This document shows positions 59,205 through 60,036 of a stretch of DNA of 64,000 bases, piece after piece. How positions within the stretch are numbered: position 1 is the stretch's first letter; each line of letters starts with the position of its first letter. The notes under the pieces were generated by a model that was not told the origin of the DNA, made no database searches, and worked only from the letters and a program-made list of their open reading frames with translations. Made by a program: the position numbers and the translations under genes. The stretch is from the sequence record MF327008. The stretch is one strand, 5' to 3'. The DNA comes from Shigella phage Sf24.

Positions 59205-59281
59205 TGGTCGAGACAGAAGGATTCTAACCTTCAACCTACGGATTAGAAGTCCGTTGCTCTATACAATTGAGCTATGCCTCG
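59205..59281 (-). tRNA. tRNA-Arg (anticodon UCU)
   Basis: Hand-folded: acceptor CGAGGCA/TGTCTCG, D-arm GCTC..GAGC, anticodon loop CTTCTAA, T-arm GAAGG-TTAGAAT-CCTTC, CCA encoded. Confidence 0.8.
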
Positions 59282-59285
59282 TATT

Positions 59286-59360
59286 TGGCGGACATGCATG
59301 GATTCGAACCATGGACCAATTGATTAACAGTCAACTGCTCTACCATTGAGCTACACATCC
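59286..59360 (-). tRNA. tRNA-Asn (anticodon GUU)
   Basis: Hand-folded: anticodon loop CTGTTAA, T-arm CATGG-TTCGAAT-CCATG, CCA encoded. Confidence 0.75.
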
Positions 59361-59364
59361 AAAT

Positions 59365-59451
59365 TGGTGGGGAGTGATGGAGTCGAACCACCCGAGTCGC
59401 AATGACAATGAATTTACAGTCCACACCGCTACCTCTACGGGATAACTCCCC
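59365..59451 (-). tRNA. tRNA-Tyr (anticodon GUA), long variable arm
   Basis: Hand-folded 87 nt: acceptor GGGGAGT/ACTCCCC, anticodon loop CTGTAAA, T-loop TTCGACT, CCA encoded. Confidence 0.75.
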
Positions 59452-59463
59452 TAATTCATAATT

Positions 59464-59538
59464 TGGTGGCCCTGGGTGGAATTGAACCACCATCTGGCGA
59501 TTATGAGTCGCTTGCTTGAACCTTCCAGCTACAGGGCC
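59464..59538 (-). tRNA. tRNA with CAU anticodon (Ile2-type or Met)
   Basis: Hand-folded: acceptor GGCCCTG/CAGGGCC, anticodon loop CTCATAA, T-loop TTCAATT, CCA encoded. Confidence 0.75.
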
Positions 59539-59539
59539 T

Positions 59540-59615
59540 TGGTGCTGATTGACGGAATCGAACCGCCGACCTTCTCATTACAAGTGAGTTGCTCTACCTA
59601 CTGAGCTAAATCAGC
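59540..59615 (-). tRNA. tRNA-Thr (anticodon UGU)
   Basis: Hand-folded: acceptor GCTGATT/AATCAGC, D-arm GCTC..GAGC, anticodon loop CTTGTAA, T-loop TTCGATT. Confidence 0.8.
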
Positions 59616-59620
59616 AAAAC

Positions 59621-59710
59621 TGGCGGAGGCGATAGGATTTGAACCTATGAGTCGCCGGAGCGACTGCCGGTTTTCAAGACCGGTGCATTAAACCACTCTG
59701 CCACGCCTCC
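59621..59710 (-). tRNA. tRNA-Ser (anticodon UGA), long variable arm
   Basis: Hand-folded 90 nt: acceptor GGAGGCG/CGCCTCC, anticodon stem CCGGT/ACCGG with loop CTTGAAA, T-loop TTCAAAT. Confidence 0.8.
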
Positions 59711-59712
59711 AG

Positions 59713-59786
59713 TCTCCATACAAGGATTTGAACCTTGGACCTCCTGATCCCAAATCAGGCGCTCTACCAAACTGAGCTACACGGAG
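59713..59786 (-). tRNA. tRNA-Pro (anticodon UGG)
   Basis: Hand-folded: anticodon stem CCTGA/TCAGG with loop TTTGGGA, T-arm CAAGG-TTCAAAT-CCTTG; CCA not encoded. Confidence 0.8.
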
Positions 59787-59796
59787 TAAATTAAAT

Positions 59797-59870
59797 TGGA
59801 GCGGATAATGAGAATCGAACTCACATCATCAGATTGGAAGTCTGAGGTAATACCATTATACGATATCCGC
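59797..59870 (-). tRNA. tRNA-Gly (anticodon UCC)
   Basis: Hand-folded: acceptor GCGGATA/TATCCGC, anticodon stem TCAGA/TCTGA with loop CTTCCAA, T-loop TTCGATT. Confidence 0.8.
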
Positions 59871-59875
59871 AAATT

Positions 59876-59962
59876 TGGTGCGAGAAGTGGGACTCGAACC
59901 CACAAGGAAATCATTCCGCAGCATTTTAAGTGCTGTGCCTTTACCAATTTGACCATTCTCGC
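59876..59962 (-). tRNA. tRNA-Leu (anticodon UAA), long variable arm
   Basis: Hand-folded 87 nt: acceptor GCGAGAA/TTCTCGC, anticodon stem CAGCA/TGCTG with loop CTTAAAA, T-loop TTCGAGT. Confidence 0.8.
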
Positions 59963-59963
59963 G

Positions 59964-60036
59964 CTGGGAATAAAGGACTCGAACCTTTGCATCCTGGAAT
60001 CAAAATCCAGTGCCTTACCAACTTGGCTAATTCCCA
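59964..60036 (-). tRNA. tRNA-Gln (anticodon UUG)
   Basis: Hand-folded: acceptor TGGGAAT/ATTCCCA, anticodon stem CTGGA/TCCAG with loop TTTTGAT, T-loop TTCGAGT; CCA not encoded. Confidence 0.8.

What the first reader, a model, noticed from the sequence alone, without database searches (positions are those of the whole stretch)
59205..60036. Ten-tRNA cluster: the T4 set plus Tyr and Asn, contiguous with Arg
Hand folding gives Gln(UUG), Leu(UAA), Gly(UCC), Pro(UGG), Ser(UGA), Thr(UGU), a CAU tRNA, Tyr(GUA), Asn(GUU), Arg(UCU) in transcription order, with 1-5 nt spacers. The first seven follow the order I recall for T4, but T4 has no Tyr or Asn tRNA and its Arg gene is separated from the others. 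Tyr and Asn codons (UAU, AAU) are abundant in this AT-rich genome, so the extra tRNAs may be an adaptive gain. Overlapping track ORFs here are spurious.
Basis: seen in the sequence. Interest (0 to 1): 0.5.

Follow-up and report, generated by a model that had tools for sequence, protein, structure and literature searches.

The report
Standard T-even phage ten-tRNA cluster
This is a real run of ten transfer-RNA genes, but it is the ordinary, already published layout of most T4-like coliphages; T4 itself is the odd one out, because a selfish endonuclease gene sits where the Tyr and Asn genes lie here.

Summary
Nine pass Rfam's tRNA model at 59-73 bits. tRNA-Tyr does not pass, but covariation across 19 relatives supports its cloverleaf.

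The same cluster is annotated in hundreds of Tequatrovirus genomes and was published for T2L, RB1 and RB3 in 2008. Only Gln through Thr are T4 orthologues. The CAU and Arg genes are different alleles (47/77 and 44/82 identity to T4's). The block CAU-Tyr-Asn-Arg-ORF116 occupies the place of T4's Ile-segB-Arg. The window's tRNA-Asn carries the preferred SegB homing site. T4's lack of Tyr and Asn is therefore better explained by segB-linked replacement than by a gain here.

The CAU tRNA resembles E. coli ileX (AUA-reading Ile), not Met. The Tyr gene is identical to T2's and one base from T6's, which has been shown to counter the Septu tRNA-Tyr nuclease. Its variable arm is identical to T5's. Tyr and Asn codons are indeed enriched, but codon demand alone does not predict which tRNAs the phage carries. 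Verdict: already known, low interest.

The parts
59963..60036 (-). tRNA-Gln(UUG). No encoded CCA. It carries the common non-T4 anticodon-stem allele.
   Evidence: ARAGORN. RF00005 67.4 bits. Eight differences from T4, T2 and T6, all in the anticodon stem-loop. This allele is in 311 phage records.
59876..59962 (-). tRNA-Leu(UAA), identical to T4's.
   Evidence: 87/87.
59797..59870 (-). tRNA-Gly(UCC), identical to T4's.
   Evidence: 74/74.
59712..59786 (-). tRNA-Pro(UGG), identical to T4's. No encoded CCA.
59621..59710 (-). tRNA-Ser(UGA). The body is identical to T4's, but CCA is encoded here.
   Evidence: window ...CTCCGCCAG versus T4 ...CTCCG-TAA.
59540..59615 (-). tRNA-Thr(UGU), 73/76 identical to T4's.
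   Evidence: Anticodon-stem positions 39-41 read U-G-A.
59464..59538 (-). CAU tRNA, most likely tRNA-Ile2 (lysidine, reads AUA). It is not the T4 Ile allele.
   Evidence: 47/77 to T4 Ile. 76% to E. coli ileX, against 63% to metT and 60% to the initiator. The 15-nt anticodon stem-loop is identical to ileX, and positions 4-5 of the acceptor stem are C-G pairs as in ileX. Present in 584 phage records.
59365..59451 (-). tRNA-Tyr(GUA) of the phage type. It has a long variable arm and a longer than usual link between the acceptor and D stems.
   Evidence: ARAGORN. Below the RF00005 gathering score. Covariation supports the fold. Identical to T2's and 86/87 to T6's. Variable arm identical to T5's.
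59286..59360 (-). tRNA-Asn(GUU), the RB51/Kha5h allele.
   Evidence: 72.6 bits. 74/75 to Kha5h and 64/77 to T2. The Asn-Arg pair is 99.4% identical to RB51's.
59284..59310 (-). Predicted preferred SegB homing-endonuclease site: the 27 bp from the T-arm of tRNA-Asn through CCA plus AA.
   Evidence: It is the only site in the cluster with G6, A16, G18, A26 and A27, as in T2's tRNA-Asn. The reconstruction reproduces the five Asn/Ser differences stated in PMC2330249.
59205..59281 (-). tRNA-Arg(UCU). It matches neither the T4 allele nor the T2 allele.
   Evidence: 71.1 bits. 44/82 to T4, 62/79 to T2 and 77/77 to Kha5h.
58836..59186 (-). 116-aa ORF directly after tRNA-Arg, probably T2L 'trna.2'. Function unknown. 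Absent from T4.
   Evidence: PHROG 3355 at E 8e-54 and no Pfam match. A 351-nt ORF sits at the same place in T2, Sf25 and R5505. A GAGG ribosome-binding site precedes the ATG. The T2L trna.2 probe primer #24 (PMC2330249) nearly matches the ORF's 5' end.
58720..58836 (-). rnaD (species 2 stable RNA).
   Evidence: 88% identity to T4 rnaD.
58575..58713 (-). rnaC (species 1 stable RNA).
   Evidence: 97.8% identity to T4 rnaC.
58501..58524 (-). Terminator-like hairpin with a T run, ending the tRNA/stable-RNA unit.
   Evidence: 10-bp stem with 7 G-C pairs. Kha5h has a terminator annotated at the matching place.
60123..60647 (-). 174-aa ORF just upstream of tRNA-Gln. Absent from T4 and of unknown function.
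   Evidence: Window 60143-60665 has no T4 match. PHROG 2290 at E 2e-68 and no Pfam match.

Best explanation
This is the tRNA gene cluster of a Tequatrovirus (T4-like coliphage) in its common form without segB.

Layout. Ten tRNA genes lie head to tail on the strand that carries 97 of the window's 98 long ORFs. They sit between the trna.2-4/ipI genes and the stable RNAs rnaD and rnaC, and a terminator-like hairpin follows rnaC.

Expression (inferred from T4 biology). They are probably transcribed as one precursor and cut into tRNAs by host enzymes. CCA would be added to Gln and Pro, which lack an encoded CCA.

Function. Eight of the tRNAs (Gln UUG, Leu UAA, Gly UCC, Pro UGG, Ser UGA, Thr UGU, Ile k2C-AU, Arg UCU) read A-ending codons. 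The classical view is that these suit an AT-rich phage better than the host pool. I hold that from prior knowledge; the codon table bears it out only weakly.

The other two, Tyr(GUA) and Asn(GUU), duplicate host tRNAs that E. coli already has in several copies. They most likely keep translation going when host defence nucleases destroy those tRNAs. Septu and retron-Eco7 (PtuAB) cut tRNA-Tyr. PARIS AriB cuts Lys, Thr(UGU) and, more weakly, Asn(GUU). The extra genes also add capacity for the phage's high Tyr and Asn demand.

History. T4's eight-tRNA set is probably the derived state. The segB cassette (T4-type Ile, segB, T4-type Arg) homes into tRNA-Asn and replaces the block CAU-Tyr-Asn-Arg-ORF.
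For: Shown here:
- Gene calls and anticodons.
- Synteny with T4, T2, T6, Kha5h and R5505.
- Homology breakpoints at 58836/58837 and 59518/59519.
- Allele identities.
- Allele counts in phage records: core Leu-Gly 518, window-type CAU 584, Tyr 636, T4-type Ile 129, full-length segB 126.
- T6 carries T4-type Ile, then Tyr, then segB, then T4-type Arg. That is intermediate between the window's arrangement and T4's.
- The window's Asn has the full set of SegB preference bases.
- No SegB homologue in the 64-kb window.
- The CAU tRNA is closest to E. coli ileX.
- The Tyr variable arm is identical to T5's and T6's.

Published:
- The T2L, RB1 and RB3 clusters, and SegB homing that excludes Met-Tyr-Asn-Arg (PMC2330249).
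- Septu cleaves tRNA-Tyr. T6 tRNA-Tyr rescues infection. T4, which lacks Tyr, cannot escape. T2 is resistant (PMC13096335).
- Retron-Eco7 is countered by T5 tRNA-Tyr (PMC11555353).
- AriB targets Lys, Thr and Asn, and T5 versions of these tRNAs rescue (PMC12409363).
Against: - No expression or charging data exist for this particular phage.
- T2's resistance to Septu was not shown to depend on its tRNA-Tyr.
- The counter-defence role of Asn is inferred from T5, not shown for any T-even phage.
- The window's Asn allele keeps the AriB-sensitive U39-C40-A41 motif. It would help by dosage at best, not by resisting cleavage.
- Septu also cleaves T6's tRNA-Tyr.
- The promoter was not located. The consensus scan found nothing convincing just upstream of Gln.
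- Deep ancestry (which arrangement is truly older) is not resolved. Only the observed direction of conversion and the allele frequencies are known.
- The A-ending-codon rationale is only weakly borne out: those eight codons are enriched 0.99- to 1.8-fold over the E. coli sample, which is a small and atypical one.
Confidence: 0.85

Rival explanations
1. One reading: Tyr and Asn tRNA genes were gained by this phage lineage because UAU and AAU codons are abundant in its AT-rich genome, so the genes exist mainly to meet codon demand.
For: The window is 34% G+C. UAU is 36.3 and AAU 42.1 per 1000 codons. Tyr makes up 4.56% of residues against 2.77% in an E. coli sample (1.64 times). Asn makes up 5.52% against 4.63% (1.19 times).
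Against: - Lys (2.10 times) is more enriched than Tyr; Glu (1.50), Ile (1.32) and Asp (1.28) are more enriched than Asn, and Phe (1.20) about equally. None of these has a phage tRNA here.
- GUA and GUU pair exactly with UAC and AAC, which are the rare synonyms in the phage.
- E. coli K-12 has three Tyr and four Asn tRNA genes.
- The genes are not a gain of this lineage. They sit in hundreds of relatives and in other phage families.
- T4's lack of them is explained by segB (PMC2330249).
- The E. coli sample is small (9020 codons) and atypical.
Confidence: 0.25
2. The extra tRNA genes have no benefit for the phage. They persist as neutral passengers, or as landing pads, in a region that is shuffled constantly by endonucleases that target tRNA genes.
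For: - The region is highly mosaic. Gln and Asn each have two alleles and Arg has three. There are insertions in T2 (an ORF inside Thr) and deletions in T6 (Pro to Thr).
- The 2008 paper states that the tRNA region is not essential for phage development.
- SegB cuts inside most tRNA genes.
Against: - Sequence conservation is strong, and compensatory changes keep every helix intact.
- The tRNA-Tyr gene is kept in at least four phage groups and in over 1000 plasmid records.
- T6 tRNA-Tyr gives a measured benefit against Septu.
Confidence: 0.1
3. The Tyr call is a false positive or a decayed pseudogene, because the general covariance model rejects it.
For: RF00005 does not reach its gathering score on 59365-59451. 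The best clan hit is tRNA-Sec at 29.9 bits. ARAGORN's D stem contains a C-C mismatch.
Against: - In 19 distinct relatives the cloverleaf is 99.1% paired. The D stem is 100% paired in a shifted register, with one C-G to U-A exchange (against 64.5% in ARAGORN's register).
- The sequence is one base from T6 tRNA-Tyr, which is seen on northern blots and rescues infection.
- T5's version can be converted into an effective amber suppressor, according to the T5 record.
Confidence: 0.03

Closest known systems
tRNA gene region of phages T2L, RB1 and RB3 (Brok-Volchanskaya et al. 2008, PMC2330249); the same region in T2 (AP018813), RB51 and Kha5h
   Same: No segB. Same position between the trna ORFs/ipI and rnaD/rnaC. 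Same block CAU-Tyr-Asn-Arg followed by a 351-nt ORF. The Tyr and CAU genes are identical to T2's. The Asn and Arg genes are 99-100% identical to RB51's and Kha5h's. The preferred SegB site lies in tRNA-Asn.
   Different: T2's Thr gene is interrupted by a 133-aa ORF, whereas the window's Thr is intact. T2's Asn and Arg are a second allele (64/77 and 62/79). The window carries the other Gln anticodon-stem allele.
Phage T4 tRNA cluster (NC_000866)
   Same: Same locus, strand and order for Gln, Leu, Gly, Pro, Ser and Thr. Leu, Gly and Pro are identical, as is the body of Ser. rnaD and rnaC lie downstream.
   Different: T4 has Ile(T4 allele)-segB-Arg(T4 allele) where the window has CAU-Tyr-Asn-Arg-ORF116. 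T4 has no Tyr or Asn gene. T4's Ser and Ile lack an encoded CCA. T4 lacks the 174-aa ORF upstream of Gln.
T6 tRNA-Tyr (counters Septu) and T5 tRNA-Tyr (counters retron-Eco7)
   Same: The window's Tyr is 86/87 identical to T6's and 84% to T5's. The 17-nt variable arm (UUGUCAUUGCGACUCGG) is identical in all three.
   Different: In T6 the gene lies next to segB and can be amplified by it. The window has no segB, so that dosage route is not available in cis. No functional test exists for this phage.
E. coli tRNA-Ile2 (ileX, lysidine at position 34)
   Same: 76% identity. Positions 1-5 of the acceptor stem are identical, including C4-G69 and C5-G68. The anticodon stem-loop GCGACUCAUAAUCGC is identical.
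   Different: The D arm and T stem differ. Most GenBank records label the phage gene tRNA-Met. Lysidine modification has not been tested.

Membership tests
Tequatrovirus tRNA gene cluster | Located between trna.2-4/ipI upstream and rnaD, rnaC and e.8 downstream, all on one strand | tested here: met
   Flanks align to T4 at 93-96%. rnaC is 97.8% and rnaD 88% identical to T4's. Annotated relatives show the same neighbours.
Tequatrovirus tRNA gene cluster | Core genes Gln-Leu-Gly-Pro-Ser-Thr in this order, orthologous to T4's | tested here: met
   Leu 87/87, Gly 74/74, Pro identical over T4's 74 annotated nt, Ser 87/87 over the body, Thr 73/76, Gln 65/74 over T4's annotated 73 nt (66/74 with ARAGORN's bounds).
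Exact T4 tRNA set ('T4 set plus two') | The Ile(CAU) and Arg(UCU) genes are the T4 alleles | tested here: not met
   CAU is 47/77 and Arg 44/82 identical to T4's. blastn finds no T4 Arg in the window.
segB-less T2L/RB-type allele (PMC2330249) | No segB; block CAU-Tyr-Asn-Arg followed by an ORF of unknown function | tested here: met
   No tblastn hit for SegB in the window. Gene order. ORF116 matches PHROG 3355 and lies where T2 has its 351-nt ORF.
segB-less T2L/RB-type allele (PMC2330249) | Preferred 27-bp SegB site in tRNA-Asn (GGTTCRANTCC ... CCAR, with G6, A16, G18, A26, A27) | tested here: met
   All five bases are present at 59284-59310. The site differs from T2's at four positions in the degenerate middle. 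Actual cleavage cannot be tested with these tools.
segB-less T2L/RB-type allele (PMC2330249) | T2L-specific ORF (trna.1) in place of tRNA-Thr | tested here: not met
   The window has an intact Thr gene at 72.9 bits. T2's 133-aa ORF has no tblastn hit in the window.
tRNA-Ile2 (lysidine) as opposed to elongator or initiator tRNA-Met | Sequence closer to ileX than to metT/U or metZ; C4-G69 and C5-G68; ileX-type anticodon stem (TilS determinants, from established knowledge) | tested here: met
   76% against 63% and 60% identity. The 15-nt anticodon stem-loop is identical.
tRNA-Ile2 (lysidine) as opposed to elongator or initiator tRNA-Met | C34 converted to lysidine and the tRNA charged with Ile | not testable with these tools
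   Needs mass spectrometry or a charging assay.
Canonical tRNA by Rfam RF00005 | Score at or above the gathering threshold of 29 bits | tested here: not met
   Not met for Tyr only. The other nine score 59-73 bits. Covariation still supports a cloverleaf for Tyr, with a 4-5 nt link between acceptor and D stems.
Phage tRNA-Tyr that counters PtuAB nucleases (T5, T6) | Same tRNA family: GUA anticodon, A73, the distinctive variable arm | tested here: met
   86/87 to T6. Variable arm identical to T5's and T6's.
Phage tRNA-Tyr that counters PtuAB nucleases (T5, T6) | Restores phage growth on hosts with Septu or retron-Eco7 | not testable with these tools
   Shown for T6 and for T5-family phages only.
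AriB-resistant phage tRNA (T5 type) | A change at U39 or position 41 of the U36-A-A-U-C|A41 cleavage motif | tested here: not met
   The window's Asn reads U39-C40-A41. The T2/R5505 allele reads G39-C40-G41. The phage Thr reads U39-G40-A41 (motif).

The most novel reading that the evidence does not exclude
The variable 3' half of the T-even tRNA cluster (CAU, Tyr, Asn, sometimes His, Arg), together with Thr, may be a mobile counter-defence tRNA set rather than a codon-adaptation set.

Single tRNA genes appear to be swapped between unrelated virulent phages and phage-like plasmids. The CAU gene is 98.7% identical and the Tyr gene 95% identical in Vequintavirus. An Asn-Tyr-Thr cassette is found in 43 IMG/VR contigs and matches over 1000 enterobacterial plasmid records.

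The alternative alleles of Asn and Gln differ almost only in the anticodon stem. On this reading they record an arms race with nucleases that cut the anticodon stem, such as AriB.
Probability: 0.25. Interest if true: 0.45.

Novelty: already known. Interest (0 to 1): 0.15.

Why it matters
For genome annotation it matters little. The cluster is real, typical of the genus and already in the databases and literature.

It does correct a common assumption, namely that T4 is the reference state. T4's eight-tRNA set is the minority form, linked to segB. The ten- or eleven-tRNA form seen here is the usual one.

It also predicts two phenotypes for this phage:
- It should tolerate defences that cleave tRNA-Tyr (Septu, retron-Eco7) better than T4 does.
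- In mixed infection with a segB-carrying phage, it should lose its CAU-Tyr-Asn-Arg block.

Both predictions bear on choosing or engineering T4-like phages for therapy.

Tried and rejected
- An IMG/VR scan with a 44-nt tRNA-Gly pattern, meant as a survey of cluster layouts, gave only two loci. I used BLAST counts in the phage collection instead.
- I first thought the window's Gln anticodon-stem allele was unique, because six comparison phages lacked it. It is in fact the majority allele, present in 311 records.
- I looked for a sigma-70-type promoter just upstream of Gln. Nothing rose above the shuffled background. A MotA-box-like TGCTTGA lies there, but the -10-like element abuts the tRNA 5' end, so I make no claim.
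- Single-sequence folding of tRNA-Tyr does not give a cloverleaf, which is uninformative. The covariation counts were used instead.
- I tested whether the window's Asn would resist AriB in the way T5 tRNAs do. Its local motif is the sensitive one.
- Pfam gave nothing for the flanking ORFs.
- One literature search timed out. A narrower repeat found a single genome-survey paper, which I did not read.
- The weak Rfam hits on the plus strand (Plastid-ycf2, sX4, YrlA, Hammerhead_II) are far below their gathering scores. All but Hammerhead_II lie over the tRNA genes, and I treat them all as chance.
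Full report
**1. Observation**

ARAGORN on the whole window finds ten tRNA genes and nothing else. All are on the minus strand between 59205 and 60036. In transcription order they are Gln(UUG), Leu(UAA), Gly(UCC), Pro(UGG), Ser(UGA), Thr(UGU), a CAU tRNA, Tyr(GUA), Asn(GUU) and Arg(UCU).

Rfam's general tRNA model scores nine of them at 59-73 bits, against a threshold of 29. Spacers are 0-12 nt rather than 1-5. Gln and Pro lack an encoded CCA end. The ORFs listed over the tRNA genes are not annotated in related genomes.

**2. The one weak call: tRNA-Tyr**

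The Tyr gene does not reach the Rfam threshold. It appears only as a 29.9-bit match to tRNA-Sec.

A pattern taken from its anticodon, variable and T arms retrieved 82 IMG/VR stretches (80 were analysed). Together with the phage records these gave 21 distinct relatives, 19 of which were aligned.

- On that alignment the cloverleaf is 99.1% paired, and six pairs change on both sides.
- The D stem is 100% paired, with one C-G to U-A exchange, if it is placed two bases further 3' than ARAGORN drew it.
- ARAGORN's register has a C-C mismatch in every sequence and is only 64.5% paired.

The tRNA therefore has four or five bases between the acceptor and D stems instead of the usual two. This probably explains the low model score. 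It probably also explains why ARAGORN misses relatives that have one more base there.

The gene is identical to T2's and differs by one base from T6's. T6 tRNA-Tyr is detected on northern blots and is biologically active (PMC13096335). The Tyr call stands.

**3. What the locus is**

megablast places the region in Tequatrovirus. 977 phage records match, and 266 of them cover at least 80% of a 1.3-kb query. Kha5h is the best full-length match at 97.8%. No record is identical over 24 kb; the best is about 96-97%.

Kha5h has the same ten genes annotated. R5505 has the same ten plus His(GUG) between Asn and Arg.

| Phage | Order of genes |
|---|---|
| Window | Gln-Leu-Gly-Pro-Ser-Thr-CAU-Tyr-Asn-Arg-ORF116-rnaD-rnaC |
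| T4 | Gln-Leu-Gly-Pro-Ser-Thr-Ile-segB-Arg-rnaD-rnaC |
| T2 | Gln-Leu-Gly-Pro-Ser-[ORF inside Thr]-CAU-Tyr-Asn-Arg-ORF |
| T6 | Gln-Leu-Gly-[Pro/Thr deletion hybrid]-Ile(T4 type)-Tyr-segB-Arg(T4 type) |

The T2L, RB1 and RB3 regions, with their Met, Tyr, Asn and Arg genes, were published in 2008 (PMC2330249).

**4. It is not 'the T4 set plus two'**

blastn against T4 gives homology for 58000-58836 (e.8, rnaC, rnaD) and for 59519-60142. Nothing matches in between.

Gene by gene against T4 (with T4's annotated bounds):
- Leu, Gly and Pro are identical to T4's, as is the body of Ser.
- Thr is 73/76.
- Gln is 65/74 over T4's 73-nt annotation (66/74 with ARAGORN's bounds).
- The CAU tRNA is only 47/77 identical to T4's tRNA-Ile.
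- Arg is only 44/82 identical to T4's.

The block 58837-59518 (most of CAU, then Tyr, Asn, Arg and a 116-aa ORF) is therefore an alternative cassette to T4's Ile-segB-Arg.

Counts in the phage collection show that T4's cassette is the minority.

| Query | Records with a match |
|---|---|
| Core Leu-Gly | 518 |
| Window-type CAU allele | 584 (447 at 99% or more) |
| Tyr gene | 636 |
| T4-type Ile allele | 129 |
| segB | 183 (126 full length) |

**5. Polarity: loss in T4 rather than gain here**

The 2008 paper showed three things:
- SegB's preferred site is a 27-bp sequence inside T2L tRNA-Asn.
- In T4 x T2L crosses, segB is inherited by 94% of progeny.
- This excludes about 1250 bp of T2L DNA that carries Met, Tyr, Asn, Arg and two ORFs.

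I reconstructed the site from the paper's description. It starts with GGTTCRANTCC and ends with CCAR. The T2 Asn and Ser sites differ at exactly the five positions the paper names, which validates the reconstruction.

The window's Asn, at 59284-59310, is the only site in its cluster with all five preferred bases: G6, A16, G18, A26 and A27. The window has no SegB homologue. This phage is therefore a predicted recipient of segB homing.

T6 shows an intermediate state in which Tyr survives next to segB. Deep ancestry is not proven. The observed direction of conversion and the allele frequencies both argue against a lineage-specific gain.

**6. Identity of the CAU tRNA**

I compared it with E. coli K-12 genes fetched here. 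It is 76% identical to ileX (tRNA-Ile2, read as AUA after lysidine modification), 63% to the elongator metT and 60% to the initiator. It shares acceptor-stem positions 1-5 with ileX, including C4-G69 and C5-G68. It also shares a 15-nt identical anticodon stem-loop.

That C4-G69 and C5-G68 are TilS determinants is established knowledge, not something tested here. Most GenBank records call the gene Met, and a few call it Ile. I read it as the functional equivalent of T4's tRNA-Ile, but a different allele.

**7. How it most likely works**

Steps shown directly:
- The genes are tightly packed on the strand used by 97 of the window's 98 long ORFs.
- A strong terminator-like hairpin follows rnaC at 58501-58524.
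- ORF116 starts 18 nt after Arg, behind a GAGG ribosome-binding site.

Steps inferred from T4 biology: one precursor transcript, host processing, and CCA addition for Gln and Pro.

Eight anticodons read A-ending codons. That fits the classical codon-supply role, although those codons are enriched only 0.99- to 1.8-fold over the small E. coli sample.

Tyr and Asn do not fit that pattern. Their anticodons pair exactly with UAC and AAC, the rarer synonyms in the phage. E. coli has three Tyr and four Asn tRNA genes.

But Lys is more enriched than Tyr; Glu, Ile and Asp are more enriched than Asn (Phe about equally). None of these has a phage tRNA here.

**8. Counter-defence evidence**

From the literature:
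- Septu (PtuAB) cuts E. coli tRNA-Tyr in the variable arm. Overexpressed T6 tRNA-Tyr restores T6 growth. Deleting T6's tRNA region increases sensitivity. T4, which has no Tyr gene, cannot escape. T2 is resistant (PMC13096335).
- Retron-Eco7 is neutralised by the tRNA-Tyr of T5-family phages (PMC11555353).
- PARIS AriB cuts Lys(UUU) and Thr(UGU) and, more weakly, Asn(GUU), at U36-A-A-U-C|A41. T5's Lys, Thr and Asn together restore growth (PMC12409363).

From the sequence here:
- The window's Tyr has the same 17-nt variable arm as T5 and T6.
- Its Thr reads U39-G40-A41.
- Its Asn keeps the sensitive U39-C40-A41, whereas the T2/R5505 Asn allele reads G39-C40-G41.

Tyr as a counter-defence tRNA is therefore well grounded by analogy. 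Asn in that role is plausible but untested, and for this allele it could work only by dosage.

**9. Verdict**

The feature is real, ordinary for its genus and already described. The evolutionary reading is reversed, and the functional reading is incomplete.

Noticed in passing
window 59365-59451; alignment A1: The phage-type tRNA-Tyr has four or five bases between the acceptor and D stems instead of two. It fails Rfam's tRNA threshold. ARAGORN misses the relatives that have the five-base link (10 of 80 IMG/VR loci).
   Followed up: yes
window 59464-59538 and 59365-59451; L017 and L019 (Vequintavirus isim and C9): The CAU tRNA is 98.7% identical (74/75) and the Tyr tRNA 95% identical to genes in rV5-like Vequintavirus phages. 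Neighbouring tRNAs there are only 63-83% identical and stand in a different order. This suggests that single tRNA genes are exchanged between phage families.
   Followed up: partly
L018 (CMS-2020a) 2300-3000; IMG/VR loci L022-L100: A small cassette Asn(GUU)-Tyr(GUA)-Thr(UGU), followed by Ser or Met, carries the same tRNA-Tyr family. It occurs in 43 IMG/VR stretches. It also matches 1052 enterobacterial plasmid records (113 over 80% or more of the query); those listed are mostly about 90-115 kb and almost all are rated non-mobilizable, so they are probably phage-plasmids. These three tRNAs are the known targets of Septu/retron-Eco7 and PARIS.
   Followed up: partly
window 59963-60036: tRNA-Gln exists as two alleles that differ at eight bases, all in the anticodon stem-loop. 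The stem is CUGGA/UCCAG with loop UUUUGAU here, against UAGCA/UGCUA with loop CUUUGAC in T4. The window's loop equals that of E. coli glnU. This allele is in 311 phage records.
   Followed up: partly
window 59205-59281: The window's tRNA-Arg has no GG in its D loop (AAUUGUAUA), and its T loop reads UUAGAAU. The usual G19-C56 tertiary pair therefore appears replaced by U19-A56. The T2 allele has the usual G and C.
   Followed up: no
L007 (T6) and L006 (T2), aligned: T6's annotated 'tRNA-Thr' is a hybrid. A deletion joins the 5' acceptor strand of Pro to the rest of Thr at the shared GTAGCTCAG, and ARAGORN does not call it. In T2 a 133-aa ORF sits inside the Thr gene.
   Followed up: partly
window 59621-59623; L004 (T4): tRNA-Ser has an encoded CCA here and in T2, but not in T4. 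T4's tRNA-Ile lacks CCA, while T6's copy of the same allele has it. T4's CCA-less Ile gene may therefore be a by-product of the deletion that removed Tyr.
   Followed up: no
window 60143-60665 and 58837-59186: Two ORFs of unknown function flank the cluster and are absent from T4. One is 174 aa (PHROG 2290) and the other 116 aa (PHROG 3355). Neither has a Pfam match.
   Followed up: partly
L003 (R5505) 1786-1861: Many relatives carry an eleventh tRNA, His(GUG), between Asn and Arg. The variable genes Tyr, Asn and His all have G-U-N anticodons. From prior knowledge, that is three of the four tRNAs that carry queuosine and are cut by colicin E5.
   Followed up: no
window 1-64000: 97 of the 98 long, non-overlapping ORFs are on the minus strand, and the window is 34.4% G+C.
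   Followed up: no
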